A stretch of 64,000 bases of DNA from Actinomycetota bacterium (GCA_037033365.1 JAZBLS010000001.1:18937-82936); one strand, 5' to 3'. Positions 5,857 to 22,468 are shown, numbered from the stretch's first letter. Numbers and translations are program-made. The notes: generated by a model from the letters alone, not told the origin.

Positions 5857-5870
5857 CGCCTCTGGGTGAC

Positions 5871-5908
5871 AAGCCGAGCTGCCCATCGGGGGATTGGCAG
5901 CTCGGCTT
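5871..5908 (+). terminator. Hairpin terminator after APC permease
   Basis: AAGCCGAGCTGCC / GGCAGCTCGGCTT 13-bp perfect stem. Confidence 0.7.
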
Positions 5909-6052
5909 TGTCGTACCCGAAAGACGGCGGGCATCAGCGCCCGTCGGCGATGCACCAAACCGGAACAGTTCCCGACCGACGGCCCCCGTAGCGTCGGAGA
6001 TAGACACGAGCCGTCCGGACAATCGACGTCCGGACCCCGAAGGAAGAGTCTC

Positions 6053-7024
6053 ATGACCATCTCACAGCAGCAGCCGATTCCCACCGAGGGGCGGTACATC
6101 CTCGTCGCTCCCCATCACTTCCCTGACCTGGACCGGGAGCACGCGCTCGCCGCAGAACTCGGTGTCGAGATCGTCGCCGCGCATGACGCAGAGCATTTCC
6201 GCGAGGCGCTGCCCGGCGCAGCGGTCGTGATGGTCACTCCCTACGTAAAACTCCTCGCAGACGACCTCGCGACAATCGAACGCCCCGCGGTCATCGTCAG
6301 GTACGGCATCGGCTACGACAACATCGACGTCGCTGCAGCGGTCGAAGCGGGGATCCCGGTCTCCATCGTTCCCGACTCGTCGTCGGAGGAGGTCGCCTCC
6401 CACGCCTTCGCCATGGGAGTGGCGCTCGTTCGACGACTCCCGGCAGGCGACAGTGCCATCCGTCGTAGCGAATGGGCCGGAACTATTGCATACGAGGCTC
6501 CGACGTTCGGCGACCTCACGGTCGGCGTCATCGGCTTCGGCAGGATCGGTCGCCATGTCGCGCGCCTGTATGAAGCAATAGGCGCCAAGGTTCGCGCCTA
6601 TGACCCGTTCATCGAAGTCGACGAGAGAGTCCGCGCCGAGCTTGACGAGGCGCTCACCTCGTCCGACATCATCACCCTTCACGTGCCGCTCAGCGACGAC
6701 ACGAAGAATCTGATCTCGCGTGATGTTCTCGTACGCGTCAAGCCGGGGGCTGTGATCGTCAACGTTTCGCGCGGTGGGCTTATCGACGAGGAGGCGCTTG
6801 CGGACGCGCTGCGCGAGGGCAAGATCAGTGGAGCGGGCCTGGACACGTTTTCGACGGAACCACTCGGCGCCACCAATCCGCTTCGAAATGCTCCGAACGC
6901 GCTGCTGACGCCGCACATCGCATGGCGTTCAAACCTGTCTGTAGGGGCATTGCAGGCCGGTGCGGTCGATCGGGCACGAATCGCGCTCACTGGTGGCTCG
7001 CTCGTCGATGTCGTGACGAAGTGA
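6053..7024 (+). CDS. D-isomer-specific 2-hydroxyacid dehydrogenase (CtBP/SerA-like)
   Basis: RYGIGYDNID, GVIGFGRIG, LHVPL, NVSRGGLIDE, TPHIAW. Confidence 0.9.
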   Translation: MTISQQQPIPTEGRYILVAPHHFPDLDREHALAAELGVEIVAAHDAEHFREALPGAAVVMVTPYVKLLADDLATIERPAVIVRYGIGYDNIDVAAAVEAGIPVSIVPDSSSEEVASHAFAMGVALVRRLPAGDSAIRRSEWAGTIAYEAPTFGDLTVGVIGFGRIGRHVARLYEAIGAKVRAYDPFIEVDERVRAELDEALTSSDIITLHVPLSDDTKNLISRDVLVRVKPGAVIVNVSRGGLIDEEALADALREGKISGAGLDTFSTEPLGATNPLRNAPNALLTPHIAWRSNLSVGALQAGAVDRARIALTGGSLVDVVTK

Positions 7025-7144
7025 TTCGTTCGGTGGCCCGGTAACGGCCATCTCTCCGTGGGCTCGGGACGTTTGCGCGTCTCGAGCCCGCTCTCTTTTG
7101 GGAGGTTCGCACGGAGCAAGCATTCCTTGTCTGCAAGGCGAGGG

Positions 7145-7173
7145 TTGACAGACGGAAATTCCCGGGATACCTT
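7145..7173 (+). promoter_or_regulatory. Housekeeping-sigma promoter of the transketolase/kinase operon
   Basis: TTGACA 7145-7150, 17-bp spacer, TACCTT 7168-7173; quasi-palindrome TGAATAGGTATGCA just downstream may be the SorC-type operator. Confidence 0.65.
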
Positions 7174-7212
7174 TTTTGAGCACATCCCGTCACTAATGAA
7201 TAGGTATGCAAG

Positions 7213-8091
7213 ATGATCGACAAAGACGTCACGCAGATCGGGCGCTGGAGCGAGTGGCGCGACCGCATCTCAGAAGCCGAAGGCACTGAACAGGACGCCC
7301 TCCTCCACGAGCGCGCGCAGTGGACACGCCGATCCACCCTCCAGATGATCGCGACGGCGCAGGCTGGCCATATCGGCGGCGACTTCTCGGTGACCGACAT
7401 CCTCACGGTGCTCTTCAATCACGTGCTGAAGATCGATCCGGCCAACCCTGAGTGGGCCGAGCGAGACCGCTTCATCCTCAGCAAGGGTCACTGCGCTGCG
7501 GCGTTGTACTCGACTCTCGCCTGGGCGGGGTTCTTCTCGCCGGACGAACTCACGACCTTCATGGCGCCTCTCTCGGCGCTCAACGGCCACCCCAACCGTC
7601 GCAAGGTGCCCGGGGTCGAGACCAACACCGGTCCTCTCGGGCACGGGCTTCCGGTCGGTGTGGGTGCGGCGATCGCTGCTCGTCTCGCACGAGGCCCGGA
7701 GCGTGTTTTCGTCGTCCTCGGCGATGGCGAGATGCAGGAGGGCAGCAACTGGGAGGCGCTGATGTCGGCCGCGCACTACCGGTTGGACAACCTTTTCATC
7801 ACAGTGGATCGGAACCGCCTGCAGCAGGGTGCGCGCACGGAGGACACGAACGGTCTCGACCCGCTTCCGGAAAGGCTCGACGCCTTCGGCTGGGAGGTGC
7901 GTGAGGTGGATGGACACGACTACGGCGCACTGATCTCGGCCTATCAGCCTTCCCGCACGGGCAAGCCCGTAGCCGTGGTCGCAAACACCACGAAGGGAAA
8001 GGGCGTGTCTTTCATCGAGGACCGCGTCGAGTGGCACCACAAGGTGCCGAACGCAGAGCAGGTCGAACTGGCATTGAAGGAGCTGTCATGA
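7213..8091 (+). CDS. Transketolase N-terminal (ThDP-binding) subunit, AptA-like
   Basis: GHIGGDFS, DRFILSKGH, NTGPLGHGL, GDGEMQEG..WE..N ThDP motif. Confidence 0.9.
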   Translation: MIDKDVTQIGRWSEWRDRISEAEGTEQDALLHERAQWTRRSTLQMIATAQAGHIGGDFSVTDILTVLFNHVLKIDPANPEWAERDRFILSKGHCAAALYSTLAWAGFFSPDELTTFMAPLSALNGHPNRRKVPGVETNTGPLGHGLPVGVGAAIAARLARGPERVFVVLGDGEMQEGSNWEALMSAAHYRLDNLFITVDRNRLQQGARTEDTNGLDPLPERLDAFGWEVREVDGHDYGALISAYQPSRTGKPVAVVANTTKGKGVSFIEDRVEWHHKVPNAEQVELALKELS

Positions 8092-9047
8092 GCGTCGATA
8101 CCCCCGCCGCCGGAATGTACGACAACCGCACGGCATTCGCCGAGGAGCTCATCGCCCTCGCTGAAACCGATGAGCGCATCGTTGCCGTCTGCAATGACTC
8201 CGTCGGTTCGAGCAACCTCACTGGATTCCGTGACCGCTTCCCCGACCGCCTGATCAATGTCGGGATTGCCGAGCAGAACATGGTCGGCGTCGGGGCCGGA
8301 CTCGCCGATCGGGGTCTGATCCCGTTTGTCTGCGCGGCTGGCCCCTTCCTCACCGGGCGGTCACTCGAGCAGATTAAGGCCGACATCGCGTACAGCGGTC
8401 ACAACGTGATCCTCTGCGGAATGAGCCCCGGCATGGCATATGGAGAGCTCGGACCGACACACCACTCGGTCGAGGACTTCTCCTGGTTGCGCGCGCTCCC
8501 CGGGCTCGACATCGTCGTGCCGGCAGACCGGGAGCAGACGCGGCGCGCTGTTCGCGACGCCGTAGGCGCGCCGAGACCCACCTACATCCGTGTCGGCCGG
8601 CACAAGGTGCCGGATGTCACGGCAACGGACACTCCGTGGGAGCGCGGACGCATGCAGACGCTTCGCGAGGGAGAGGATGTCACCCTGATCGCAACAGGAA
8701 CACTCGTGTCGCGCGCGCTCCAGGCAGCAGACCAGCTCGCTACCGAAGGCGTAGGAGCACGTGTGCTCAACGCATCCTGGCTGGCTCCCTTCGATGACGA
8801 GGCAGTTGCACGTGCGTCTGTCGAGACGCGGGGAATCGTCGTCGCCGAGGAGGCGAATGTAGCGGGCGGTCTGGGCGCTGCGGTTGCCTCCGTCGTGGCG
8901 CAGCTGCCGGCGAGTCGTGCGCGCGTAAAGCTTCTCGGACTTCGCGAGTTCGCTCCGACCGGCAGCACCGACTTCCTTCTCGACTACTTCGGACTCACGT
9001 CCGCCGGGTACGTCGAAGCGGCCCGCGAGGTGTTGAGCGGTGTCTGA
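8088..9047 (+). CDS. Transketolase C-terminal subunit, AptB-like
   Basis: NVGIAEQNMVG, GPTHHSVED, EEANVAGGLG; ATGA overlap with upstream subunit. Confidence 0.9.
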   Translation: MSVDTPAAGMYDNRTAFAEELIALAETDERIVAVCNDSVGSSNLTGFRDRFPDRLINVGIAEQNMVGVGAGLADRGLIPFVCAAGPFLTGRSLEQIKADIAYSGHNVILCGMSPGMAYGELGPTHHSVEDFSWLRALPGLDIVVPADREQTRRAVRDAVGAPRPTYIRVGRHKVPDVTATDTPWERGRMQTLREGEDVTLIATGTLVSRALQAADQLATEGVGARVLNASWLAPFDDEAVARASVETRGIVVAEEANVAGGLGAAVASVVAQLPASRARVKLLGLREFAPTGSTDFLLDYFGLTSAGYVEAAREVLSGV

Positions 9048-10506
9048 GAATGTCGTTGTCGGTCCCGTCACCATCGCAGTGGACCAGGGGACGAGTGCGA
9101 CCAAAGGACTTGCGGTGGACGAGCGAGGTGTCGTCGTCGCGCGAGCGACTGCGACGTTGTCGCAGTCGCATCCGCGGCCGGGGTGGGTCGAGCAGGACCC
9201 GACGGCGATCCTCGACAGTGTGCACACCGTGGTGCGGTCGTTGCTTCACGGCCTCGAGCGACCCGTCGCCGGCGTCGGGTTCAGCACCCAGCGCGAATCG
9301 GCGGTGGCGTGGGACCGTGAGACGGGACGGCCCCTCTCGCCCGTGCTCGGCTGGCAGGACCGAAGAACCGCAGATCGCGCCCTCGCTCTTGCGGTCGACG
9401 CCGAGAGGATCCGGCGCATAAGCGGGCTGCCGCTCGACCCGATGTTCTCGGCGCTGAAACTCTCGCGCATTCTCGATGACGTCGACCCGGATCGTACCCG
9501 CGCGAGATCCGGTCGGATCGCCATGGGGACCGTGGATTCGTGGTTGTTGTGGAGCCTCACTGCCGAGCATCGCATCGAGGTGGGGAACGCGAGCCGCACG
9601 CAATTGCTCGACCTCGCCACGGGCGAGTGGAGCGACGAGTTGCTCGAGATCTTCGACATCCCGAGGGCGTGCCTTCCCGAGCTGGTGACGTCGGATGCTC
9701 CGGCCAACGCGCCGGTGTTCGATCGAATTCCACTCCGCGGCGTGCTTGGTGATTCGCACGCAGCCCTTTACGGCCACGGAGTGCGAACGCCAGGACTGGT
9801 CAAGGTGACCTATGGAACCGGCTCGTCGGTGATGGGTCTGACAGATGCGATCGTCACCGGGCCGGGGCTTGTCGGAACCATTGCGTGGAGCACTGCGGCC
9901 GGCGGCATCGCCCGCGCCTTCGAAGGCAACATCCTGGCGACGGGTGCGACGGTGCAGTGGCTCGCGCAACTTCTTGGATCCACTCCCGATCAACTCGACA
10001 CGCTCGCGAGAACGGTCTCCGACACTGGCGGGACGGACATCGTTCCCGCGTTCGCCGGACTCGGGGCCCCATGGTGGGATGAGCAAGCTGTCGCGATCAT
10101 TGCCGGTCTGCAACTCGGCACATATCCCGCACACCTCGCGCGGGCCGCGTTCGAATCGATCGCGCTACAGATCGAGGACGTGCTGACCGCTGCCGAACAT
10201 GAAGTCGGCACTGCTCTGACAACGGTGCTCGCAGACGGCGGGCCGAGTCGCAATTCCTGGCTCATGCAGCTGCAGGCAGACCTCTCCGGGCGTATCGTCG
10301 CTCGCCACGACGGCGCCGATCTTTCCGCGCTCGGTGCGGGGCGGCTCGCGGCCGTCACCGCGGGACTCATCGACCACGATGCGCTCGCCAGCAGCGCCCA
10401 TACCGATTTCATCCCCGACCCGACGTTCGATTCCGCTGAGCGCCGCCGCCGCTGGGCAGCCGCGATCGAGCGGTCCCGTCGCACCTCAGATCACGCTCGA
10501 CGCTGA
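9040..10506 (+). CDS. FGGY carbohydrate kinase (glycerol kinase/AplK-like)
   Basis: AVDQGTSATK, STQRES, WQDRRT, NASRTQL, GDSHAAL, TYGTG, DGGPSRN. Confidence 0.9.
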   Translation: MSENVVVGPVTIAVDQGTSATKGLAVDERGVVVARATATLSQSHPRPGWVEQDPTAILDSVHTVVRSLLHGLERPVAGVGFSTQRESAVAWDRETGRPLSPVLGWQDRRTADRALALAVDAERIRRISGLPLDPMFSALKLSRILDDVDPDRTRARSGRIAMGTVDSWLLWSLTAEHRIEVGNASRTQLLDLATGEWSDELLEIFDIPRACLPELVTSDAPANAPVFDRIPLRGVLGDSHAALYGHGVRTPGLVKVTYGTGSSVMGLTDAIVTGPGLVGTIAWSTAAGGIARAFEGNILATGATVQWLAQLLGSTPDQLDTLARTVSDTGGTDIVPAFAGLGAPWWDEQAVAIIAGLQLGTYPAHLARAAFESIALQIEDVLTAAEHEVGTALTTVLADGGPSRNSWLMQLQADLSGRIVARHDGADLSALGAGRLAAVTAGLIDHDALASSAHTDFIPDPTFDSAERRRRWAAAIERSRRTSDHARR

Positions 10507-10530
10507 GCCGATCCCACCAAGGAGTTTTCT

Positions 10531-11340
10531 GTGTCAACGACGACCTCATCCCTCGCTCTGTACGACAAGCACTTCACCGACCGCACGGTCGTCGTCACCG
10601 GCGGCGCCAGCGGTATCGGCCTGGGCGTAGCCCGCGCCTTCGCTGCGGCCGGTGCGAGCGTCGCCATCGCAGACCTGAGCGCCGAAGTGCTCGCTGTCGC
10701 CGAGAACGCGCGCGCTGATGGGCTCGACATGACGGGCGTCCGTCTGGATGTCACCGACGAAGCCGCCGTCATCGACTTCTTCGCCGACCTCGCTCAGCGC
10801 TGGGATCACCTCGATGTCCTTGTCAACAACGCCGGCATCATCCGCATCAACGACCTCGGTGACACCTCGCTCGCCGATTTCAATGCCGTTCTCTCGGTCA
10901 ACACGACAGCGGCCTTCCTCGCTTCACGCGAGGCACTGCCTCTGCTTCGACAGCGAGGGGGTTCTATCCTCAACGCCGCTTCGGGGCAGGCGAGGCAGGG
11001 GTTCATCTTCACGCCCGCATACGCGGCCAGCAAATTCGGCATCGTCGGCATGAGCCAGTCGCTCGCGAAGGAACTCGCTCGCGACGGCATCCGAGTCAAT
11101 TGCTATTGCCCGGGCATCGTTCGTACGGAGATGTGGGAGTACAACGACCGGGAGTGGGGCTCCCGGCTTGGCGACTACAAGCCGGGAGAACTCATCCAGG
11201 AGTGGATCAACGGCATCCCGCTCGGTCGTCCTGCGGAGAGCGACGACGTCGCCGCGCTCGTGCTGTTCCTCGCATCGGATGCAGCACGCTACATCACCGG
11301 ACAAGCCGTCAATATCGACGGCGGCATGTTTATGAACTGA
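10531..11340 (+). CDS. SDR oxidoreductase (polyol/acetoin dehydrogenase-like)
   Basis: TGGASGIG, NNAG, YAASK, YCPGIVRTEMW, TGQAVNIDGG. Confidence 0.88.
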   Translation: MSTTTSSLALYDKHFTDRTVVVTGGASGIGLGVARAFAAAGASVAIADLSAEVLAVAENARADGLDMTGVRLDVTDEAAVIDFFADLAQRWDHLDVLVNNAGIIRINDLGDTSLADFNAVLSVNTTAAFLASREALPLLRQRGGSILNAASGQARQGFIFTPAYAASKFGIVGMSQSLAKELARDGIRVNCYCPGIVRTEMWEYNDREWGSRLGDYKPGELIQEWINGIPLGRPAESDDVAALVLFLASDAARYITGQAVNIDGGMFMN

Positions 11341-11368
11341 TCGACCCTCTCGAACCGACGGAGTTTCC

Positions 11369-12388
11369 ATGAGTACCCAACCTTCCACCCAGCCCACCGA
11401 AACGGCTCTGATCCGAGGCGCCGGTTCATCAGCGGCAGCGGCCCGCACCCCGCTCTCCCGCCTGCTCTCCGGATCCGGCGGCGCGTTGCTCGGCTTCATC
11501 CTTCTCTTCGCGATCTTCTCGCTCACAACACCCCGTTTTTTCTCGGTCAACAATCTGGTCAACGTCGTCGACCAGGTGACTGTGATCGGAGTGCTCGCGA
11601 TCGGCGCGACGGCCGTCATCATCACCGGAGGTATCGATCTGTCGGTCGGCTCGGTGCTCGCGCTGAGCACGATGGTGCTCGGCTGGCTCTCCCATGACGG
11701 AGGCGTTCCGATGTGGGTCGCGATGCTCGCGGCAGTCGCCGTCGGTGCACTCGCCGGACTCCTCAACGGCCTGGGGGTGTCAATCGCCGGTCTGCCCCCT
11801 TTCATCGCCACGCTGGCGATGATGTCGATCTGCCGCGGTTTGGCGAACCTCGTCACCGACGGCCAGCAGATCGTGGGATATCCCGAGTGGTTCTATTCCC
11901 TCGCCTCGACCCGCTACCTCGGATTCTTCTCCGTCACGGCGATCGTGTTCATCCTCCTGGCCGTTGTGGCGACCGTCGTCCTCAAGTACCGGCCAGCAGG
12001 CCGAAAGGTCTACGCGATCGGCGGAAGTGCCGAGGTCGCTCGTCTCGCGGGGATCAAGGTCCGGAGCGTCACGACGTGGGTCTACGTCGCAGCCGGAGCG
12101 CTCGCCGGAGTCGGAGCAATCATCCTCGCATCGCGTCTCGACTCCTCGCAGCCGAGCGCAGGAACAGGGTATGAGCTCGACGTCATCGCCGCAGTCGTCA
12201 TCGGCGGCGCCAGCCTCAGCGGCGGTTCGGGACGCATAGCAGGCACCGTCATCGGCGTTCTGATCATCGGGGTGCTGCGCAACGGGCTCAACCTCCTCGG
12301 TGTATCGCCGTTCCTTCAGCAGATCGTCATCGGACTCGTCATCGCCGGTGCCGTCATCGTCGACGTACTGCGTCGTCGTTCGCACTGA
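11369..12388 (+). CDS. Sugar ABC transporter permease (RbsC family)
   Basis: GGIDLSVG, GRKVYAIGGSAEVARLAGI, GYELDVIAAVVIGGASL. Confidence 0.92.
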   Translation: MSTQPSTQPTETALIRGAGSSAAAARTPLSRLLSGSGGALLGFILLFAIFSLTTPRFFSVNNLVNVVDQVTVIGVLAIGATAVIITGGIDLSVGSVLALSTMVLGWLSHDGGVPMWVAMLAAVAVGALAGLLNGLGVSIAGLPPFIATLAMMSICRGLANLVTDGQQIVGYPEWFYSLASTRYLGFFSVTAIVFILLAVVATVVLKYRPAGRKVYAIGGSAEVARLAGIKVRSVTTWVYVAAGALAGVGAIILASRLDSSQPSAGTGYELDVIAAVVIGGASLSGGSGRIAGTVIGVLIIGVLRNGLNLLGVSPFLQQIVIGLVIAGAVIVDVLRRRSH

Positions 12389-12435
12389 AACCCTTCCGTC
12401 CAGAGTCGGACGGATCCATCAGAAAGGGAAATCAT

Positions 12436-13401
12436 ATGTTCAAACTCCGCAAGGTGGCCGCGTTCTCCGCGATGGTCGCCGCCGCATCCATCGCCCTGTC
12501 GGGATGCGCCATCACGCAGGCCGCCAACGACGATGGCGGTGACGACGAGATCGTCATCGGTCTCGCCGTCGCAAACCAGCAGGCCGACTTCTTCAATCAG
12601 ATCCGACAGTCGGTTGAGGCCCGGGCTGAAGAGCTCGGCGATGTCAAGGTCATTGTTGCCGACGCCAAAGGCGACGCCGATACTCAGGTGAGTCAGATCC
12701 AGGACTTCCTCACGCAGGAAGTTGATGCGATCATCTACATCCCCGCCGGAGCGACGGCGGCCACCGTCCCTGGGCGCCGGGCGAAGGACGCCGGGATCCC
12801 GGTCGTCACCGTCGATCGTAACCCTGACGGAGAGCCCGGTGACACGTTCATCGCGACCGATTCTGTGGCTGCGGCCCGTGAGCTCGCGCAATGGGTGGGG
12901 GAGCAGACCGGCGGTACGGGGGCCGTGGGCGTCATCCAGGGCCAGATCGGCACGACCCCTGAGCTCGATCGGGATGAGGGCTTCAAGGAGGGGCTCGCCG
13001 ACTATCCCGACCTCGTCGAGGTGGCCCGTCAAGCGTCCGACCAGTGGGCGCAGGACGAGGGCTTCGACATCGCCACGGACATGCTCCAGGCGCACCCGGA
13101 AATCACGGTGTTCTTCGGTCGTGCGGATGCCCTGGCACTTGGTGCGGCAAGCGCTGCCCGAACCGCGGGACGTGATGACATTCTCATCGTGGGGTTTGAC
13201 GGTGATGTCGCCGGTCTCGAAGCCGTGCGGGACGGTGAACTGGATGCGACCGTCACGCAGCCCACGCAGGCGATGGGCGCCCTCGCGCTCGATTCGGCCA
13301 TCAAGCTGGCCAACGGTGAAGAGGTGCCGGCCGAGCAGCTCCAGGCCGGAGTGCTGACCACCGCGGACAACGTCGAACCGTTCATCGAGAAGCACCCGTG
13401 A
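12436..13401 (+). CDS. Sugar/polyol ABC transporter substrate-binding lipoprotein (RbsB family)
   Basis: Lipobox LSGC; AGIPVVTVDR, GFDG; periplasmic binding fold motifs. Confidence 0.9.
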   Translation: MFKLRKVAAFSAMVAAASIALSGCAITQAANDDGGDDEIVIGLAVANQQADFFNQIRQSVEARAEELGDVKVIVADAKGDADTQVSQIQDFLTQEVDAIIYIPAGATAATVPGRRAKDAGIPVVTVDRNPDGEPGDTFIATDSVAAARELAQWVGEQTGGTGAVGVIQGQIGTTPELDRDEGFKEGLADYPDLVEVARQASDQWAQDEGFDIATDMLQAHPEITVFFGRADALALGAASAARTAGRDDILIVGFDGDVAGLEAVRDGELDATVTQPTQAMGALALDSAIKLANGEEVPAEQLQAGVLTTADNVEPFIEKHP

Positions 13402-13405
13402 TCCG

Positions 13406-13436
13406 TCGGGGTCCGCGGTTCAGCCGCGGGCCCCGA
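13406..13436 (+). terminator. Intercistronic hairpin after SBP gene
   Basis: TCGGGGTCCGCGG / CCGCGGGCCCCGA stem (one G-U pair). Confidence 0.6.
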
Positions 13437-13476
13437 TGCCCCCACCCATCGAAGTCTTCTGTCCGAGGAGGTACAG

Positions 13477-14976
13477 ATGAATACCGAGAACACGCCCGGG
13501 CTGGTGGTGCGCGGCGCGCGCAAGGTCTACCCCGGCACAATCGCGCTGGACGGCGTCGACTTGGAGGTGCGACCGGGTGAGCTCGTCGCTCTGCTCGGTG
13601 AGAACGGCGCAGGCAAATCGACCCTCTCCACCATCATCTCCGGCGCCACGAGGGCGACCGAGGTCGAGATGACCTGGAACGGCGTTCCTTACGCTCCGGC
13701 TGACCCGCGGGAGGCGATCGCGATGGGGATCGGGCTCATCCACCAGGAGATGCGACTGCTGCCGGACCTCTCGGTGGCTGAGAATGTTGCGATCGGCCGC
13801 TGGCCGATGGCTCGCGGCGTGCTCGATTCGCGAACGATGCGCCGCCAGGCGATGAAGCAGCTGGACCGGCTGGGCTTCACCGGCCGTCCCGACCAGCTCG
13901 TCTCGGAGCTCAGCGTCGCCGGACAGCAGCAGGTCGAGATCGCGAAAGCGTTGATGCTCGATGCGAACCTACTCATCCTCGACGAGCCCACCGCAGCGCT
14001 CGGCGCGGCCGAGACCGATGCCCTCTTCGAAACTGTGCAGCAACTGAAGAAGGAGGGCATGAGCTTTATCTACGTCAGCCACCGCCTCAGCGAGATTCGC
14101 CGGATCGCTGATCGGATCGTCGTCCTGCGGGATGGCGCGAAGGTGGCGGAGCACGCCCGCGGAGATGTTGATCCGGAGCAACTCGTCAGAGAGATGGTGG
14201 GCAGATCCGTTGAGAGACTGTTCCCCGAGATCCCGGTGCCTGATGCCACAGCAGCGCCGGTGCTACAAGTCGAGGGCTTCACAAGTCGTCGTGGTGAGTT
14301 CACAGACGTCACATTCGACGTCAAGCCGGGAGAGATCTTCGGCATTGCCGGCATCGTCGGCGCAGGACGTACAGAGATCGTGCGCGCGGTGGCATCCGCC
14401 GATCCGCACGTCGACGGCTCGGTGCGAGTGGCTGGGAAGTCTGTACGGCGTCGGCATCCGTCTGATGCGATCGACGCCGGTATCGTGCTCATACCTGAGG
14501 ATCGCAAGCACCAGGGTTTGGTGCTCGAGCACTCGATCGCCGACAACGTTGCGTTGCCGAATCTTGCGATACTCGGGCGCGGCGGATGGATCGGCGCCAA
14601 AGCGGTGCAGGAGCTTGCAGCCACGGTGGGGCACAAACTCGGGGTGAAGGGGCGAGCGCAGGATCCCGCTTCCTCGATGTCGGGAGGCAACCAGCAAAAG
14701 GTGGTGATCGGAAAATGGCTGCAACGGGATCCGAAGGTCATCATCCTGGACGAGCCGACTCGCGGAATCGATGTGGGTGCCAGAGCCGCGATCTACGAAG
14801 TGATCGCCGACCTCGCGCGATCCGGCGCCGGCGTGGTCGTGGTCAGCTCGGACCTCGATGAGGTGCTCGGCCTCGCGCACCGAGTGATGGTCGTCGCGGA
14901 GGGCCACATTCGCGGCATCCTGCCGCGAGATGAAGCGACCCCCGAGCGGGTCATGGGTCTCGCCGCGGCACAGTGA
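13477..14976 (+). CDS. Sugar ABC transporter ATP-binding protein (two ABC domains)
   Basis: GENGAGKST, LDEPT twice, SGGNQQK. Confidence 0.93.
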   Translation: MNTENTPGLVVRGARKVYPGTIALDGVDLEVRPGELVALLGENGAGKSTLSTIISGATRATEVEMTWNGVPYAPADPREAIAMGIGLIHQEMRLLPDLSVAENVAIGRWPMARGVLDSRTMRRQAMKQLDRLGFTGRPDQLVSELSVAGQQQVEIAKALMLDANLLILDEPTAALGAAETDALFETVQQLKKEGMSFIYVSHRLSEIRRIADRIVVLRDGAKVAEHARGDVDPEQLVREMVGRSVERLFPEIPVPDATAAPVLQVEGFTSRRGEFTDVTFDVKPGEIFGIAGIVGAGRTEIVRAVASADPHVDGSVRVAGKSVRRRHPSDAIDAGIVLIPEDRKHQGLVLEHSIADNVALPNLAILGRGGWIGAKAVQELAATVGHKLGVKGRAQDPASSMSGGNQQKVVIGKWLQRDPKVIILDEPTRGIDVGARAAIYEVIADLARSGAGVVVVSSDLDEVLGLAHRVMVVAEGHIRGILPRDEATPERVMGLAAAQ

Positions 14977-15006
14977 CTGCGGCCTGAAAACAGAAGGAGA
15001 CAGCAT

Positions 15007-15774
15007 ATGAGTGTGGATTTCGCGCTGCGCGACCGAGTGGCGTTCGTCACCGGGGGAGCGAGCGGCATCGGCCGTGCGATCGCCGTGGGCATCGCGACTC
15101 AGGGCGGCGCAGTCGGACTCTTCGATCGACCAGGAGCCGCATTCGACGAATCGATCGCGGAGGTCGAGGCCGTCGGCGGGCGGGCACTGGTGCTTGAGGG
15201 CGATGTGACGGACAAGGCTTCGTTGGATGCCGCTGTCGATGCGCTCGAAGAAGCCTTCGGCGGGCTGACCCTTGCCGTCAACGCGGCGGGGATCGCGAAC
15301 GCAGCGCCGGCGGAGGAGATGAGCCTCGAGCAGTGGTCGACCCTCTACGATGTCGACGTGACCGGCGTGTTCCTCAGTTGTCAGGCTGAGGCGCAGGTCA
15401 TGCTCGCCGCGGGCCGGACAGGATCAATCGTCAACATCGCGTCGATGTCGGGGTCGATCGTGAATCGTGGTCTGCTGCAGGCTCACTACAATTCCGCCAA
15501 GGCCGCGGTCGTGCATCTGTCGAAATCGCTCGCCGTAGAGTGGGCCGAACGCGGAATCCGCGTCAACGCGCTCAGCCCCGGCTACACTGCGACTCCGATG
15601 AACACTCGTCCCGAGATGATCGACCGCATGCGGATGTTCGCCGAGCAGGTGCCGATGCAGCGCGTCGCCGAACCGCAGGAGATCGCGGGGCCGGCCGTAT
15701 TCCTGCTGTCGGACGCGGCCAGTTACGTCACCGGCATCGATCTGCTCGCAGACGGTGGGCATTGCGCCTGGTAG
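15007..15774 (+). CDS. SDR oxidoreductase (polyol dehydrogenase-like)
   Basis: TGGASGIG, NIASMSG..NRGLLQAHYNSAK, SPGYTATPM. Confidence 0.88.
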   Translation: MSVDFALRDRVAFVTGGASGIGRAIAVGIATQGGAVGLFDRPGAAFDESIAEVEAVGGRALVLEGDVTDKASLDAAVDALEEAFGGLTLAVNAAGIANAAPAEEMSLEQWSTLYDVDVTGVFLSCQAEAQVMLAAGRTGSIVNIASMSGSIVNRGLLQAHYNSAKAAVVHLSKSLAVEWAERGIRVNALSPGYTATPMNTRPEMIDRMRMFAEQVPMQRVAEPQEIAGPAVFLLSDAASYVTGIDLLADGGHCAW

Positions 15775-15815
15775 TCGATTCGGGGCGCCGACCGAGCGGC
15801 ATTACCCTGGGGACT

Positions 15816-16826
15816 ATGGCAGATCAGCCGCGAAAGGCGGGCAGCAGGCAGAGCGTGGAGCGCCTGCGCCTGCTGGCCAAGGTGGCGCGCATGTACTACG
15901 AGCAGGGAATAAGGCAGCCCCAGATCGCGGCGACTCTAGGTATGTCGCAGTCGCGGGTCTCTCGCTCTCTGAAGGAAGCGACAGCGCTGGGCATCGTCCG
16001 CACGATCGTGCTCCCCCCTCCTGGAGTGTACGGAGACGTCGAGGATCGGGTACGAGATCGCTTCGGTTTGCGCGACGTGGTCGTGGCGGATACCCCGGAC
16101 GACTCGGAAGCGTCGATTCTGCGCGCGCTAGGAGCAGCAGGAGCAGCGTATCTCGAGAGCACTCTGACAGGAGATGACCGCGTGGGAATCAGTTCCTGGT
16201 CGTCGACGCTTCTCGCCACCGCTGATGCGATGACTCCGAGCACGGCGCGCACCGCCGTCGAGGTCGTGCAGATCATCGGCGGCGTCGGAGACCCCAGCGT
16301 GCAGGTGAATGCGACCCGTCTCGCCGAACAGTTCGCGCGGGTCACAGGAGCGGCACCGCGGTTCCTTGCCGCGCCGGGAGTCGTGAGCAGCACGGCGCTG
16401 CGGGATGCTCTTCTGGAGGATGCGTTCATCGCTGAGCTTGCGCGATCGTGGTCGCGACTGTCCGTCGCGCTCGTCGGCATAGGGAGTGTGGAGCCCTCTC
16501 CGCTGCTCAGACAGTCGACGAATGCTCTCGGGGTGGACGATCTCGGGGAGCTTCGTGAACTCGGTGGAGTCGGTGACGTCTGCCTGCGGTTCTACGACAA
16601 GCGCGGCCGCTCGCTGCATTCGCACCTCGAAGATCGCATCGTCGGCATCTCTGAGGAACAACTGCGTGCCGTGCCGAGAGTGATCGGAATCGCCGGCGGT
16701 GCACGCAAGTTCTCCGCGATCCGTGGAGCCGTGCTCGGCGGATGGATCAACACCCTCATCACAGATCTCGACACGGCCAAGGCGCTTCTCGCCGACGGCG
16801 CAACCACACTCAAGGAGCAGTCATGA
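15816..16826 (+). CDS. SorC/DeoR family sugar-binding transcriptional regulator
   Basis: VARMYYEQGIRQPQIAATLGMSQSRVSRSL HTH, VGDVCLRFYD, AGGARKFSAIRGAVLGGWINTLITD. Confidence 0.9.
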   Translation: MADQPRKAGSRQSVERLRLLAKVARMYYEQGIRQPQIAATLGMSQSRVSRSLKEATALGIVRTIVLPPPGVYGDVEDRVRDRFGLRDVVVADTPDDSEASILRALGAAGAAYLESTLTGDDRVGISSWSSTLLATADAMTPSTARTAVEVVQIIGGVGDPSVQVNATRLAEQFARVTGAAPRFLAAPGVVSSTALRDALLEDAFIAELARSWSRLSVALVGIGSVEPSPLLRQSTNALGVDDLGELRELGGVGDVCLRFYDKRGRSLHSHLEDRIVGISEEQLRAVPRVIGIAGGARKFSAIRGAVLGGWINTLITDLDTAKALLADGATTLKEQS

Positions 16827-17266
16827 CTTCGACCCTCTCGATCGCATTCCTCAAAGCGGGCTGGCACGCCGACATCGTCGACCAGGCCCTTGCGGGCTTC
16901 ACCGCCGAAATGCAGGATTCTGGCCTACCGCACGAGATCACGGTGCTGGACGTACCGGGTGCCTTCGAACTCCCATTGCAGGCGAAGCGGGCAGCGTCGA
17001 CGGGACAGTATGGAGCTGTCGTCGCAGCTGCCCTGGTCGTTGACGGCGGTATCTACCGACATGACTTTGTCGCTCAGGCGGTGGTTGACGGTTTGATGCG
17101 CGTGCAACTCGACACGGACGTTCCCGTTTTCTCGGTAAGTCTCACGCCTCATAACTTCCAGGAGACTGCCGAGCACATCGGCTTCTTCTCGGAGCATTTC
17201 GTCAAGAAGGGGCGGGAAGCGGCCCGTGCCGTCCGAAGGATCGCCGCGCTGGACTCGGCGGTCTGA
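16823..17266 (+). CDS. ribH: 6,7-dimethyl-8-ribityllumazine synthase, type II (RibH2-like)
   Basis: WHADIVD, DVPGAFELPL, VDGGIYRHDFVA, TPHNFQET..H..FF..HF.KKG; ATGA overlap with regulator stop. Confidence 0.88.
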   Translation: MTSTLSIAFLKAGWHADIVDQALAGFTAEMQDSGLPHEITVLDVPGAFELPLQAKRAASTGQYGAVVAAALVVDGGIYRHDFVAQAVVDGLMRVQLDTDVPVFSVSLTPHNFQETAEHIGFFSEHFVKKGREAARAVRRIAALDSAV

Positions 17267-17311
17267 TCTGCACCGAGCCGGGGGACGACCACGACGGCCG
17301 TCCCCCGCACA

Positions 17312-18127
17312 TCAGTCGGAGAGCGATTCGATTCGCGCCCTGGCGCTCTCGAGAGAATCGATGATCCGCTGAGCGTGGTCGATCGCGAAACCCCAGGTGG
17401 TCCGGTGCGTGACGATGATGTACTCCCCGCGCAGGAGCCCGTCGATCCCCGCGCGGGCGACGTCGGCCGGATCCTGCGCGAGCGGCAGAATCGCTGCGGC
17501 GGCCTCAATAGAAGCCTCTGTCATCTCAATAATGCGTTCGGTAAGGATCCATCCGGGAGCGAAGAGCGACACCTGCACACCACTACCGGCGAAATCCCGG
17601 CGAGCGGTGTCGGTGAACGCCAACGTCGCGTATTTGCTCACCGTGTAGGCGCTGACGGCCATCACGTGTGGTGGGACTCCCAGGGAGTGCTCCGAGCCGA
17701 CATTGAGGATCGCGGCCTCCCCGCCGGACGCGGCTGTGGCTCGGAGCGCGGGCGCGAACGCGTGGATGCCGTTGAACACACCGGCTATGTTGACGTCGAA
17801 GACACGGTGGGCACTCGCCGGGTCGATCATGTCCAGGCCCCCGAGTCCGCCCTCGGCAGCCGCGTTGTTGATCACGAGGTTCACGCCACCATGAGTCCTC
17901 TCCACATGCCTCGCGAGTGCGGCGACCTCGGCGTACTCCGCGACATCGGTCCGCACCCACTCCGCCGTACCGCCGGCAGCACCGATCTCTCTGACCGTGG
18001 AGGACGCGTCGCTCTGAGAAGCGATCACGACCGTCGCTCCACGACGCGCGGCTTCCAGCGCTAACGCACGCCCGAGACCGACTCGACCACCCGTGACGAC
18101 CGCGACCGAACCGTTCAGATCAGTCAT
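17312..18127 (-). CDS. SDR oxidoreductase
   Basis: TGGRVGLG, NNAA, YTVSK. Confidence 0.85.
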   Translation of the reverse strand: MTDLNGSVAVVTGGRVGLGRALALEAARRGATVVIASQSDASSTVREIGAAGGTAEWVRTDVAEYAEVAALARHVERTHGGVNLVINNAAAEGGLGGLDMIDPASAHRVFDVNIAGVFNGIHAFAPALRATAASGGEAAILNVGSEHSLGVPPHVMAVSAYTVSKYATLAFTDTARRDFAGSGVQVSLFAPGWILTERIIEMTEASIEAAAAILPLAQDPADVARAGIDGLLRGEYIIVTHRTTWGFAIDHAQRIIDSLESARARIESLSD

Positions 18128-18140
18128 GAGCTCAGCGCCT

Positions 18141-18974
18141 TCACAAACCGAACGCGGTTCGAATGACGCGGTCGAACCCACGATCGGGGAGCAGCCATCG
18201 GAGTGCGAGCATCGGAGCGGCTCCGAAGCCGACGCGGTAGCGGGTGCGAGGTCGTCGCGTTCGAGCGATCTTTACGACCGTCTTGCCAATGAGCTCGGGA
18301 GCTGAAGTGTTGCGCGCGTTTGGCGCGGAACTCGCGGCGAGCGTACTCGCGACCTTGGCGGCCATCGTCGCGTACGCGCCGGCTGCCGAGGTCTGGGTGA
18401 GCGTCTCGGCGGCGATCGCTCCCCATTCGGTGCGGATGGAACCCGGTTCGATGACCACCGTGTGCACGCCGAATCGACTGGCCTCGATGCGCAGAGCGTC
18501 GCTGAGCGCCTCGACGGCGTACTTGCTGGCGTGATACCAACCGCCCAGCGGCGTGACGAGCTTGCCGCCCATGGAGCTGATGTTGATGATCGTGCCGGAC
18601 TTCTGCCGACGCATGTGCGGCAGCACCAGTTGAGTCAGACGCGCGAGCCCGAAGACATTCACGTCGAGCTGCTGGCGAGCCTCGCTCAGTGGCACGTCTT
18701 CGATCGATCCGTAGGAGCCGTAGCCGGCATTGTTCACTAGCAGGTCAATCCTCCCGGTGTCGCGGATGATCGTCTCCACGGCAGTGGTGAGTGATGCCTC
18801 GTCGGTGACGTCGAGCGCGATAGTTCTCACCCCATCACGCTCAAGGTCCTTCATCCGGTTCACGCGGCGCGCAGCGCCGTATACGATGAATCCCTCATTC
18901 TTCAAGCGAATCGCTGTGTCTGCCCCGATTCCGGAGGAGGCTCCGGTGACTAAGGCGACTCTCGTGGTGGCCAT
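18141..18974 (-). CDS. SDR oxidoreductase
   Basis: TGASSGIG, NNAGYGSYG, YHASK, EPGSIRTEW. Confidence 0.9.
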   Translation of the reverse strand: MATTRVALVTGASSGIGADTAIRLKNEGFIVYGAARRVNRMKDLERDGVRTIALDVTDEASLTTAVETIIRDTGRIDLLVNNAGYGSYGSIEDVPLSEARQQLDVNVFGLARLTQLVLPHMRRQKSGTIINISSMGGKLVTPLGGWYHASKYAVEALSDALRIEASRFGVHTVVIEPGSIRTEWGAIAAETLTQTSAAGAYATMAAKVASTLAASSAPNARNTSAPELIGKTVVKIARTRRPRTRYRVGFGAAPMLALRWLLPDRGFDRVIRTAFGL

Positions 18975-18997
18975 GATGATCCTCTTCTTCAACTCGC

Positions 18998-19810
18998 TCA
19001 GCGACGCTCAGCGAGTGCCGCGATCGGTGCAGTGGTCTGCCACATGGCGAGACGCTGCTCGTAGACGTGCTGGGCGATCCCCTGCGGTGTGGTTCCGAAG
19101 AACACCCGTGCGGGCGACGGAGACGCATCAACGACCGCGAGGATCGCGGCGCCGACGCCGGCCGGGTCGGCTCCACCGGCCGCCGCCGCGATCATCTGCT
19201 CGCGAATGGGCAGGTAAGATTCCTGGCTCTCAGCCCACACCGAGCTTGATCCAGCCCAGTCGGTGCCGTAAGAGCCGGGCTCGACGAGAGTGACGTCGAT
19301 CCCGAAGCCTGCGACCTCCTGAGCCAGCGACTCGGTGAAACCTTCAAGGGCCCACTTCGAGGCGTGGTATGCGCCCAGCAGAGGGAATGCGACGACACCG
19401 CCGATCGAAGAGATCTGGATGATATGGCCTCCGTGCTGTTCGCGCATGATCGGGAGAACCGCTTGGGTGACGTGGAACGGTCCGAACACGTTGACATCGA
19501 GCTGGCGCTGGAACTGCTCCGCGGTCACCTCTTCGATCGCGCCGAACAGCCCGTAGCCCGCGTTGTTGATGACGATGTCGATGCGGCCAAAACGTGCGTG
19601 CGCTGATGCGACGGCGTCGAACACCGCATCCCGGTCGGTCACATCCAAGGCGAGGGCGAGCACCGCGTCTCCGAACTGCGCGACGAGTGCGTCGAGAGTC
19701 GAGATGTCTCGTGCGGTGGCGGCGACTTTGTCGCCCCGCTCGAGAGCGGCACGGGTGAACTCCCTGCCGAATCCGCGGCCCGCTCCGGTGATGAACCATG
19801 TCTTGCTCAC
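18998..19810 (-). CDS. SDR oxidoreductase
   Basis: TWFITGAGRGFG, NNAGYG, YHASK, EPGSYGTDW; GTG start inferred. Confidence 0.88.
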   Translation of the reverse strand: MSKTWFITGAGRGFGREFTRAALERGDKVAATARDISTLDALVAQFGDAVLALALDVTDRDAVFDAVASAHARFGRIDIVINNAGYGLFGAIEEVTAEQFQRQLDVNVFGPFHVTQAVLPIMREQHGGHIIQISSIGGVVAFPLLGAYHASKWALEGFTESLAQEVAGFGIDVTLVEPGSYGTDWAGSSSVWAESQESYLPIREQMIAAAAGGADPAGVGAAILAVVDASPSPARVFFGTTPQGIAQHVYEQRLAMWQTTAPIAALAERR

Positions 19811-19871
19811 GTGCTGTCTCCTCTTGTCGTCAATGCGTCCAAGCGACGCAATGAACACATCATGCAACAAA

Positions 19872-19908: not shown

Positions 19909-20547
19909 ATGTTTATGATGACGGGCAACGAGCGCAAAGTCGGGCTGCGCGAGCGCACTCGACAAGCTGTAACTCGCGAGATCACCGAGACCGCCAACGC
20001 GCTCTTCATCGAGCGCGGGTACGAATCGACCACCATCGACGACATCGCCGAAGCGGTGGGCATGTCGCGCCGCAGTGTTTTTCGATACTTTTCGACCAAG
20101 GAGGACCTCGTCCTGGGAAAGCTCGCTTTTTCAGGTCAAGAGGTGGTCGAGCAGTTCCGCAACAGGCCCGCCGATGAGCCGGTGTGGGAATCGCTGAGAG
20201 AGGTGTTTCGCCTGATCGCCCCTGCCGTCGACAACCTCGACAAAGACGCCGTCGCCGCGCCGATGCAGCGGGTGATCTTCTCCACGCCATCCCTTCTCGC
20301 GGCCTATCTCGGTATGCAGCAGGGGCTGCAGGACGCCATTATGAACGAGATTCGAGATCGCGCTGCGCGGCGCGGTGCGCCATACCCGAAGTCGGATCCA
20401 TTCCCCCGCGCGGTCGCAGCTGCGGCATTCGGATGTTTAGTCGCCGCGCAACAGACGTGGCTGGAAGACGAGTACGACGAGACATTCGCGAAGGCGATCG
20501 ACGAAGCGATGGATGCAGTGGCGGCAGCGTCTGGGCGTGCGGGCTGA
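19909..20547 (+). CDS. TetR family regulator
   Basis: GYESTTIDDIAEAVGMSRRSVFRYFSTKEDL. Confidence 0.92.
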   Translation: MFMMTGNERKVGLRERTRQAVTREITETANALFIERGYESTTIDDIAEAVGMSRRSVFRYFSTKEDLVLGKLAFSGQEVVEQFRNRPADEPVWESLREVFRLIAPAVDNLDKDAVAAPMQRVIFSTPSLLAAYLGMQQGLQDAIMNEIRDRAARRGAPYPKSDPFPRAVAAAAFGCLVAAQQTWLEDEYDETFAKAIDEAMDAVAAASGRAG

Positions 20548-21814: not shown

Positions 21815-22468
21815 ATGGCATACCGTGGACGGATGGATGAACCGAGCCAGACTTCCCACACCGGCTACCGGCGGCGGGTGACGTCGACACGGCGCGCGAT
21901 CGTGCAGGCAGCGGGGGAACTCCTCCTTGAGCATGGCGAGGCCGGTGTCACGATCGAGGCCATCAGTTATCGTGCGGAGGTCGCGAAACAAACCATCTAC
22001 AACAGGGTTGGGAACAGAGCAGCGGTGCTTGCGGCGGTGGCGGAGGATGCCATTTCGGCCAATGAGCTCTATCTGAATGCTGCCTACGACACACCCGGGT
22101 CTGTATTCGAGAGAGCTCAGGCCGTCGCAGACGCGTACCTGCGCTTCGCGGTCGACCAGCCTCAGGCGTTTCGCCTGATCTCGTTCCCCCCGCCGGGCAA
22201 GGGTGCAGGCATGGATGTCGTCTCGTTCATCGAGATGCAGAATGCGAAGCTCGCGGAGCTCATCGATGAAGGTGTCCGTACCGGGGTGATCGCGACGGGT
22301 GTCAAACCCGGGGTAATTGCCATGGTGCTCTGGCGTTCGTGGGATGGCGTGATAAGCCTGCTGCACCGCCCCGACGACCTGCAGGCGTCGGAGGAGACCG
22401 TTCGCGGGCTGCTGCTGACTCTAAGTCAGGTGATTCAGTTCGGGCTCGGGTCGGGTGAAAGGCCGTGA
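21815..22468 (+). CDS. TetR family regulator
   Basis: VTIEAISYRAEVAKQTIYNRVGNR HTH. Confidence 0.85.
   Translation: MAYRGRMDEPSQTSHTGYRRRVTSTRRAIVQAAGELLLEHGEAGVTIEAISYRAEVAKQTIYNRVGNRAAVLAAVAEDAISANELYLNAAYDTPGSVFERAQAVADAYLRFAVDQPQAFRLISFPPPGKGAGMDVVSFIEMQNAKLAELIDEGVRTGVIATGVKPGVIAMVLWRSWDGVISLLHRPDDLQASEETVRGLLLTLSQVIQFGLGSGERP

What the first reader, a model, noticed from the sequence alone, without database searches (positions are those of the whole stretch)
16823..17266. Type II lumazine synthase (RibH2-like) translationally coupled to a sugar-catabolic operon
Seen: the gene overlaps the SorC regulator stop (ATGA) and no other rib gene or FMN riboswitch is nearby. Known: the motifs match the type II (Brucella RibH2-like) class, normally tied to flavin control. 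Inference: it is induced by the operon's sugar, either to drain or use a 4-carbon/pentulose phosphate, to boost flavin supply, or as a neofunctionalised protein or cage.
Basis: partly seen in the sequence, partly recalled or inferred. Interest (0 to 1): 0.55.

Follow-up and report, generated by a model that had tools for sequence, protein, structure and literature searches.

The report
Sugar-operon-embedded second lumazine synthase (RibH2)
A second, Brucella-type riboflavin-pathway enzyme (lumazine synthase RibH2) has lost its usual FMN riboswitch and is the last gene of a sugar-catabolic operon. The same odd pairing recurs in several unrelated bacteria, next to apiose-type and erythritol operons, so it looks like an undescribed link between these sugar pathways and vitamin B2 synthesis rather than chance.

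Summary
Gene 16823-17266 (+) encodes a 147-aa type II lumazine synthase. It scores 222 bits on NCBIfam NF009084 (cut-off 160) and is about 60% identical to the solved M. loti and Brucella RibH2 structures. All family-invariant residues are kept. Its ATG overlaps the SorC stop codon (ATGA), and an AAGGAG ribosome-binding site lies 5 nt upstream. No riboswitch or rib gene is nearby. The genome's canonical operon (FMN riboswitch, ribD, ribE, ribBA, ribH) lies on another contig.

The linkage is not unique to this strain. Among RibH2 relatives, 10 loci sit beside the same split-transketolase/FGGY/SDR/ABC/SorC cluster, in at least five gene arrangements (Microbacterium, a second actinobacterial family, Rhizobiaceae, Stappiaceae, Paracoccaceae). 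Twelve more sit in or beside a Brucella-like erythritol (ery) locus, most between eryC and eryD. The alphaproteobacterial copies keep their own FMN riboswitch. The actinobacterial and gammaproteobacterial copies have lost it.

The usual state is still an isolated, riboswitch-controlled gene (35 of 39 random alphaproteobacterial loci), and most apiose-type clusters lack RibH2.

Best reading: a genuine auxiliary lumazine synthase that is induced by the sugar. I infer, without proof, that it protects riboflavin synthesis from the pathway's DHBP-like ketotetrose 4-phosphates. No sequence evidence supports neofunctionalisation. Other first-stage notes of this scan recorded RibH2 copies elsewhere, but none in sugar operons.

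The parts
16823..17266 (+). ribH2-like gene: a 147-aa type II lumazine synthase
   Evidence: Pfam PF00885 at 1.2e-34. NF009084 at 222 bits against a cut-off of 160. Matches PDB 2OBX at 1e-49 and 1T13 at 3e-48. All residues invariant across the 88-sequence alignment are present.
16823..16826 (+). ATGA start/stop overlap with the SorC gene (translational coupling)
   Evidence: Read directly from the sequence. The same 4-nt overlap occurs in Microbacterium sp. SA39 (L038). G010 (L024) has a 30-nt gap instead.
16812..16817 (+). Shine-Dalgarno AAGGAG, 5 nt before the ATG
   Evidence: GGAG-type sites stand at the same place in all operon-embedded relatives examined.
15840..16826 (+). SorC/DeoR-type sugar-phosphate-sensing regulator (start codon uncertain, 15762-15840)
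   Evidence: Pfam Sugar-bind at 1.6e-60 plus an HTH domain. Resembles NCBIfam DeoR(Bac) and LsrR models below their cut-offs.
7213..15774 (+). Catabolic and transport genes of the same co-directional block. They are split transketolase (7213-8091, 8088-9047), FGGY kinase (9040-10506), SDR (10531-11340), ABC permease, binding protein and ATPase (11369-14976), and SDR (15007-15774).
   Evidence: The whole block, with ribH2 at its end, is conserved in L024 and L038.
17277..17308 (.). GC-rich hairpin between ribH2 and the convergent SDR gene (17312-18181, minus strand). It is the likely end of the operon transcript.
   Evidence: Minimum free energy -27.5 kcal/mol, z = -2.7 against shuffles. It has no T-tract, so the consensus terminator scan does not call it.

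Best explanation
The gene encodes a catalytically competent type II lumazine synthase, an auxiliary isozyme to the riboswitch-controlled RibH of the canonical rib operon. In this lineage it has lost the FMN riboswitch that normally governs ribH2. It is now the last, translationally coupled cistron of a SorC-regulated operon for an apiose-like branched sugar or polyol (uptake, SDR oxidation/reduction, FGGY phosphorylation, split-transketolase cleavage). It is therefore made when the sugar is being catabolised rather than when FMN is low. The recurrent linkage of ribH2 to this cluster and to erythritol loci points to selection. The proposed reason is inferred and not shown. Both pathways pass through ketotetrose 4-phosphates (apulose 4-P, erythrulose 4-P/3-tetrulose 4-P). 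These are hydroxylated look-alikes of 3,4-dihydroxy-2-butanone 4-phosphate (DHBP), one of the two substrates of lumazine synthase. Extra, or less sensitive, lumazine synthase would keep riboflavin synthesis going while these analogues are abundant. My separate confidences are: genuine lumazine synthase about 0.9; co-expressed with the operon about 0.8; linkage selected rather than chance about 0.8; the DHBP-analogue rationale about 0.35.
For: Family identity and intact residues are shown. W14 aligns with Brucella Trp22, and the W22A mutant fails to complement (PMC2828483). M. smegmatis RibH2 is a working alternate lumazine synthase (PMC12240317). For coupling: the ATGA overlap, the ribosome-binding site, no promoter-like site in 15000-17600, the only terminator-like match a weak hairpin inside ribH2 at the rate shuffles give, and no riboswitch. 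For recurrence: the same operon plus ribH2 occurs in G010 and Microbacterium SA39. In G337, from another actinobacterial family, ribH2 is co-directional with an apiosidase-like hydrolase and divergent from isomerase-TktN-TktC-FGGY-SorC. Alphaproteobacterial loci L043, L074, L087, L090, L104, L105 and L169 show at least four further arrangements. On the RibH2 tree these loci are scattered, and well-supported branches force at least 3 origins among the riboswitch-bearing ones plus 2 among the riboswitch-less ones. In every sampled genome that has both a >=56%-identical TktN and a RibH2 (G000, G010, G337, G482, G439), the two lie within 10 kb, where the chance expectation is about 0.3-0.6% per genome. 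In the actinobacterial sample, co-occurrence gives Fisher p = 0.014. A parallel case is ribH2 in or beside a Brucella-like ery locus in 12 loci from Enterobacterales, Oceanospirillales and Roseobacteraceae, most of them between eryC and eryD. The structural analogy of the intermediates to DHBP rests on textbook chemistry, not on a tool result.
Against: Most apiose-type clusters lack RibH2: 16 of 18 TktN-positive genomes in the actinobacterial sample. So it is an accessory, not a pathway enzyme. In a random alphaproteobacterial sample only 1 of 39 RibH2 loci is sugar-linked. No data show that apulose-4-P or erythrulose-4-P bind, inhibit or are turned over by any lumazine synthase, and literature searches found nothing. 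The operon's substrate has not been identified experimentally. Riboswitch-less RibH2 copies elsewhere sit next to flavoenzymes, which favours a simpler flavin-demand story. Related loci are not independent, so the counts overstate significance.
Confidence: 0.4

Rival explanations
1. Flavin-demand model. RibH2 is a portable booster of lumazine synthase capacity that gets wired into regulons whose enzymes need extra FMN or FAD. Here it simply raises riboflavin output during growth on the sugar.
For: Riboswitch-less RibH2 copies often lie next to flavoenzymes. An FMN-dependent luciferase-like monooxygenase sits directly upstream in 6 Micrococcaceae loci, the closest relatives of the window's protein. 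FAD-dependent DAO-family oxidases flank L037 and L055. A FAD_binding_4 gene flanks L025, Pyr_redox_2 flanks L032/L033, and FMN_bind_2 flanks the L096 group. In ery loci the FAD-dependent EryB lies two genes upstream.
Against: The window's operon and its alphaproteobacterial counterparts contain no recognisable flavoenzyme; the SDRs, kinase, transketolase and transporter are not flavoproteins. The model therefore does not explain why the apiose-type cluster in particular is a recurrent partner.
Confidence: 0.25
2. Hitch-hiking. ribH2 and the sugar clusters are both mobile accessory genes that end up in the same flexible genome regions. The overlap with SorC arose by deletion and has no adaptive meaning.
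For: The RibH2 subfamily is patchy and horizontally mobile. It occurs in 3 of 25 Microbacterium species genomes, counting this one, and in 6 of 401 class genomes, and some copies are on plasmids (L061, L066). Its contexts are very diverse.
Against: Adjacency to one rare cluster type appears in at least five arrangements and several tree positions, and to a second tetrose-type locus as well. Adjacency holds in all five sampled genomes that carry both. The tight operonic spacing and ribosome-binding sites are conserved.
Confidence: 0.15
3. Neofunctionalisation. The protein no longer makes (only) dimethyl-ribityllumazine. It instead binds or converts a ketotetrose or pentulose phosphate of the pathway, makes a modified lumazine, or acts as a scaffold or ligand carrier for SorC.
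For: Brucella RibH2 has a very low kcat (0.006 s-1), and a 'new function' has been proposed for decameric lumazine synthases (PMC2828483). The pathway intermediates resemble DHBP.
Against: Every residue invariant across the 88 aligned subfamily sequences is kept. No alignment column separates sugar-linked copies from riboswitch-controlled ones. Genetics in Brucella and M. smegmatis show that RibH2 supports riboflavin synthesis.
Confidence: 0.1

Closest known systems
Type II (decameric) lumazine synthase RibH2 of Brucella spp. and Mesorhizobium loti (PDB 1T13/1DI0/1XN1, 2OBX)
   Same: About 60% identical over residues 4-142. The hit is above the cut-off of the type II NCBIfam model. The Trp equivalent to Brucella Trp22 and all invariant motifs are present. 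It is a second copy beside a type I RibH in the rib operon.
   Different: The described RibH2 genes are isolated ORFs preceded by an FMN (RFN) riboswitch (PMC2828483; 35 of 39 loci). This one has no riboswitch and overlaps the stop codon of a sugar-operon regulator. Its quaternary structure and activity are untested.
M. smegmatis RibH2 (MSMEG_6598), an alternate lumazine synthase
   Same: It is an actinobacterial type II paralogue that backs up RibH1. Genetics show it makes DMRL (PMC12240317).
   Different: The abhydrolase-RibH2 context of the two f64 genomes (L032/L033, beside a mycobacterial-type MTHFR gene; probably, but not shown to be, the M. smegmatis arrangement) is not a sugar operon, and these copies branch apart from the window's protein.
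Transketolase route of D-apiose catabolism (Carter et al. 2018, as summarised in PMC13753588)
   Same: The operon has a split transketolase plus an FGGY kinase, an ABC transporter and a SorC regulator. The G337 relative adds an apiosidase-like hydrolase and a xylose-isomerase-like TIM barrel.
   Different: No lumazine synthase is part of the described pathway, and I found no paper linking the two. The window has two SDRs rather than an isomerase, and the substrate is unproven.
Brucella/Rhizobium erythritol locus (eryABCD, eryR-tpiA2-rpiB, ABC transporter)
   Same: Relatives of this RibH2 lie inside loci that match the Brucella ery locus gene for gene. These loci are also SorC (EryD)-regulated and have an FGGY kinase.
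   Different: The published ery loci contain no ribH2. The window's operon is of the transketolase type, not the ery type.

Membership tests
Type II lumazine synthase (RibH2) | DMRL_synthase fold and domain | tested here: met
   PF00885 at 1.2e-34, covering profile positions 2-137 of 139.
Type II lumazine synthase (RibH2) | Scores above the curated cut-off of the type II model and below that of the type I model | tested here: met
   NF009084 at 222.4 bits against a cut-off of 160. TIGR00114 at 73.4 bits against 84.6.
Type II lumazine synthase (RibH2) | Close sequence similarity to structurally defined type II enzymes | tested here: met
   2OBX at 9.8e-50 and 1T13 at 2.8e-48. Type I structures score 1e-15 or weaker.
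Type II lumazine synthase (RibH2) | Active-site Trp (Brucella W22; the W22A mutant fails to complement) and the family-invariant motifs | tested here: met
   W14-H15, PGAFE 45-49, DGGIYRHDFV 74-83, S104, LTPH 107-110, H125-F126, K129-G130 and E132 are all present. The W22A result is from PMC2828483.
Type II lumazine synthase (RibH2) | Decameric (dimer of pentamers) assembly | not tested
   No oligomer modelling was run. It is inferred only from about 60% identity to decameric structures.
Type II lumazine synthase (RibH2) | Lumazine synthase activity (5-amino-6-ribitylaminouracil plus DHBP gives DMRL) | not testable with these tools
   This needs an enzyme assay or complementation.
Canonical ribH2 locus (isolated ORF under an FMN riboswitch) | RFN/FMN riboswitch directly upstream | tested here: not met
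   No Rfam hit in 4000-19000. The 4-nt overlap with sorC leaves no leader. The riboswitch is present in 51 of the 88 subfamily loci and in 35 of 39 random alphaproteobacterial loci.
D-apiose transketolase-route gene cluster | Split transketolase plus FGGY ketose kinase in one operon with a transporter | tested here: met
D-apiose transketolase-route gene cluster | Apiose isomerase, and demonstrated apiose/apulose specificity | tested here: inconclusive
   The window has no isomerase and has two SDRs instead. An isomerase-like TIM barrel and an apiosidase-like hydrolase occur in the G337 relative. No comparison with characterised AptAB/AplK sequences was possible.

The most novel reading that the evidence does not exclude
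RibH2-type lumazine synthases are the cell's answer to metabolic cross-talk between tetrose/branched-pentose catabolism and riboflavin synthesis. Erythrulose-4-P, 3-tetrulose-4-P and apulose-4-P would act as DHBP mimics that poison or mis-feed the housekeeping RibH1. RibH2 would be an analogue-tolerant (or analogue-consuming) isozyme that travels with these catabolic islands. That would give a long-sought rationale for the enigmatic second lumazine synthase, including in Brucella, where erythritol use and RibH2 have each been separately tied to virulence.
Probability: 0.2. Interest if true: 0.75.

Novelty: new variant of a known kind. Interest (0 to 1): 0.5.

Why it matters
RibH2 has puzzled the riboflavin field for some time. 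It is a second, structurally odd, low-activity lumazine synthase described as an isolated, riboswitch-controlled gene. This analysis shows that one mobile RibH2 subfamily has repeatedly become attached to two catabolic gene clusters. It sits inside or beside them, with or without its riboswitch. Both clusters generate DHBP-like ketotetrose phosphates. That gives a concrete, cheap hypothesis to test: metabolite interference with riboflavin synthesis, or substrate-induced flavin supply. It also flags an unannotated accessory gene of apiose-type and erythritol operons. If the linkage is only hitch-hiking, the finding reduces to an ordinary paralogue in an unusual place.

Tried and rejected
1. I looked for residues that set sugar-linked RibH2 apart from riboswitch-controlled copies. 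None exists; the best column differs by only 0.35 in frequency. I therefore dropped neofunctionalisation as the lead reading.
2. Gly13, in place of the Arg seen in Brucella and M. loti before the active-site Trp, looked suspicious. That column is freely variable (R/N/G/S/A/Q) across the subfamily.
3. I tested whether Micrococcaceae neighbours were F420 (CofG/H) genes sharing the pyrimidine substrate. The radical-SAM neighbour is BioB, so I rejected this.
4. Literature searches linking lumazine synthase with apiose, erythritol catabolism or erythrulose found nothing relevant. The Brucella erythritol transcriptome paper does not mention riboflavin genes. The Carter 2018 apiose paper is not held.
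5. The consensus promoter/terminator scan gave no promoter-like site in 15000-17600. Its only terminator-like hit is a weak internal hairpin at the rate expected by chance.
6. The careful maximum-likelihood tree did not finish in the time allowed. I used the quick IQ-TREE result, and with only 149 columns many forks are unresolved.
7. My simple gene caller missed ribH2 in 15 loci and some ery genes (for example in L048). I rebuilt those contexts from tblastn coordinates.

Full report
**Observation**

The ORF at 16823-17266 (+) encodes 147 residues.
- It matches Pfam DMRL_synthase at 1.2e-34.
- It scores 222 bits on NCBIfam NF009084/PRK12419, the model for type II lumazine synthases (cut-off 160). 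It falls below the cut-off of the type I model TIGR00114.
- Its best solved relatives are M. loti RibH2 (2OBX, 1e-49) and Brucella RibH2 (1T13/1DI0, about 3e-48). Type I structures score 1e-15 or weaker.
- The ATG at 16823 overlaps the TGA of the upstream SorC-family regulator gene (ATGA), and AAGGAG lies 5 nt upstream.
- Upstream, all on the + strand with short gaps, lie a split transketolase, an FGGY kinase, an SDR, a ribose-type ABC transporter, a second SDR and the SorC regulator.
- Downstream, a GC-rich hairpin (-27.5 kcal/mol, z = -2.7) separates the gene from a convergent SDR gene.
- Rfam finds no riboswitch in 4000-19000, even at E<=1.
- The genome's single FMN riboswitch heads a canonical ribD-ribE-ribBA-ribH operon on contig C122.

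**Is the protein intact?**

I aligned 88 subfamily members. These are the window's protein, 80 loci from GTDB genomes and 7 loci from relatives.
- The window's protein keeps every invariant position: W14-H15, PGAFE, DGGIYRHDFV, S104, LTPH, H125-F126, K129-G130 and E132. It departs from the consensus only at three non-invariant sites.
- W14 aligns with Brucella Trp22, and the W22A mutant fails to complement (PMC2828483).
- Type II enzymes sustain riboflavin synthesis in Brucella and in M. smegmatis.
- No alignment column separates sugar-linked copies from the others.

The protein is therefore most simply a working lumazine synthase.

**Does the linkage recur?**

*Within the genus.* Only 2 of 24 other species genomes carry a RibH2.
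- G010 has the same ten-gene operon with ribH2 last.
- G008 has an FMN-riboswitch-controlled copy elsewhere in its genome.
- Microbacterium sp. SA39 also has the full operon, with the same ATGA overlap.

*Across the class Actinomycetes.* A type II enzyme was found in only 6 of 401 sampled genomes.
- One of these, G337, belongs to a different family.
- There ribH2 is co-directional with an apiosidase-like glycoside hydrolase.
- It is divergent from a cluster of xylose-isomerase-like TIM barrel, TktN, TktC, FGGY and SorC.

*Among the 80 closest loci from GTDB genomes* (59-78% identity; Actinomycetota, Alpha- and Gammaproteobacteria), two kinds of sugar context stand out.
- **Type A** is the window's own cluster. 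It lies beside ribH2 in L038, L043, L074, L087, L090, L104 and L105.
- **Type B** has 12 loci, each matching the Brucella erythritol locus gene for gene. The genes are FGGY (eryA), GlpD-like DAO (eryB), TIM barrel (eryC), SorC (eryD), DeoR, TIM and RpiB, plus a DUF2291-ABC transporter. In most of the 12 loci ribH2 is inserted between eryC and eryD.

**Riboswitch state**

Nearly all alphaproteobacterial copies keep an FMN riboswitch immediately upstream. This includes the copies beside type A and type B clusters (nhmmer; Rfam). The Microbacterium, G337 and gammaproteobacterial operon-embedded copies lack it. The association is therefore older than the loss of the riboswitch. The window represents the end state, in which control has passed to the sugar operon.

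**How strong is the association?**
- On the RibH2 tree, type A adjacency is scattered. Well-supported branches force at least 3 origins among riboswitch-bearing copies and 2 among riboswitch-less ones. Type B needs 2 plus 4 changes (this is a quick tree with few columns).
- The gene arrangements differ. ribH2 can follow sorC, be convergent on the SDR-sorC arm, follow the transporter arm, be convergent on the kinase, or be divergent from the isomerase.
- In the actinobacterial sample, 18 of 401 genomes have a TktN orthologue (13 at 56% identity or more). Only G000 and G337 also have RibH2, and in both it is adjacent. Fisher p = 0.014, with the caveat that related genomes are not independent.
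- In an alphaproteobacterial sample of 401 genomes, 40 have RibH2. Three have a TktN at 56% identity or more: G439 (the chosen centre), G467 and G482. G482 has ribH2 2.5 kb from TktN, and G467 has no RibH2.
- In all five sampled genomes that hold both, the two are neighbours. The chance expectation is about 0.3-0.6% per genome.
- Even so, the linkage is a minority state. Of 39 random alphaproteobacterial RibH2 loci, 35 have the riboswitch, 1 is type A and none is type B. Most type A clusters also lack RibH2.

RibH2 is therefore an accessory to the cluster, not a pathway enzyme.

**Mechanism**

*Shown:* the gene's identity, its coupling to the operon, the absence of a riboswitch and the recurrence of the linkage.

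*Inferred:* why the linkage exists. Two readings remain open.

1. **DHBP-analogue interference.** By textbook chemistry, the transketolase route of apiose and the erythritol route both pass through ketotetrose 4-phosphates.
   - Apulose-4-P is HOCH2-CO-C(OH)(CH2OH)-CH2OP, and erythrulose-4-P is HOCH2-CO-CHOH-CH2OP.
   - They differ from DHBP (CH3-CO-CHOH-CH2OP), one of lumazine synthase's two substrates, only by added hydroxyl or hydroxymethyl groups.
   - A co-inherited or co-induced second synthase would buffer riboflavin synthesis against such analogues.
   - This is the only idea that covers both cluster types.

2. **Flavin demand.** Other riboswitch-less copies sit beside flavoenzymes. 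These include FMN-dependent luciferase-like monooxygenases in the Micrococcaceae, which are the window protein's nearest relatives. They also include DAO oxidases and FAD_binding_4, Pyr_redox_2 and FMN_bind_2 proteins. EryB is FAD-dependent. However, the window's operon has no flavoenzyme.

I rank the readings as follows: interference about 0.35-0.4, flavin demand about 0.25, hitch-hiking about 0.15 and neofunctionalisation about 0.1.

**Comparison with what is known**

[quoted passage not shown] I found no paper that places a lumazine synthase in apiose or erythritol operons. As a protein, this is a new member of a known family. The riboswitch-less, operon-embedded wiring and the recurrent partnership with two tetrose-type catabolic loci amount to a new variant of its genomic and regulatory context.

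Earlier first-stage notes of this scan recorded:
- the apiose-like operon on this window (e1-5225256);
- RibH2 copies beside DUF1348 (e1-1949821);
- RibH2 under FMN riboswitches (e1-2315891);
- RibH2 in a sulfur-starvation regulon (e1-5272583).

None of them noted the sugar-operon recurrence.

**Verdict**

The feature is real and the linkage is not chance. The enzyme itself is ordinary, and the physiological reason for the linkage is untested. Interest is moderate (0.5).

Noticed in passing
L050:9795-9927, L073:9793-9931, L049 (Roseobacteraceae erythritol loci): A complete FMN riboswitch sits inside the ery operon, between eryC and ribH2. The repressor gene eryD (SorC) lies directly downstream of ribH2, so FMN level may modulate expression of the erythritol repressor.
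   Followed up: partly
L035:3885-6156 (G337, another actinobacterial family): ribH2 is followed about 60 nt downstream on the same strand by a 580-aa Apiosidase-like (PF13204)/DUF5060/DUF5605 glycoside hydrolase. It is divergent from a cluster of xylose-isomerase-like TIM barrel, TktN, TktC, FGGY and SorC. This is the strongest hint that the cluster family acts on apiose-containing glycans.
   Followed up: partly
L044, L065, L070, L078, L088, L101 (Micrococcaceae): There is a conserved gene pair: a putative FMN-dependent luciferase-like monooxygenase directly upstream of a riboswitch-less ribH2. The wider surroundings vary (BioB, siderophore synthetase, MFS efflux).
   Followed up: partly
L055:8326-8446: In Pantoea borealis/eucrina-type loci a TPP riboswitch heads a DAO-family (ThiO-like) gene. 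That gene lies two genes from a riboswitch-less ribH2.
   Followed up: no
L045-L061 (Pantoea): ribH2 is followed by a DUF1348/NTF2-like gene in seven Pantoea loci, and in six of them (not the plasmid locus L061) it is preceded by a phage antirepressor-like (ANT/KilAC) gene. Earlier first-stage notes of this scan recorded the same DUF1348 pairing on other genomes.
   Followed up: no
window 17312-19870 (-): Three tandem SDR genes lie on the minus strand, convergent on ribH2, and are followed by TetR-like regulator genes (19909-20547, 21815-22468). They were not examined.
   Followed up: no
window 5894-7024 (+): A D-isomer 2-hydroxyacid dehydrogenase gene lies just upstream of the transketolase genes. 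Whether it belongs to the operon could not be judged, because the related loci were cut at this point.
   Followed up: no
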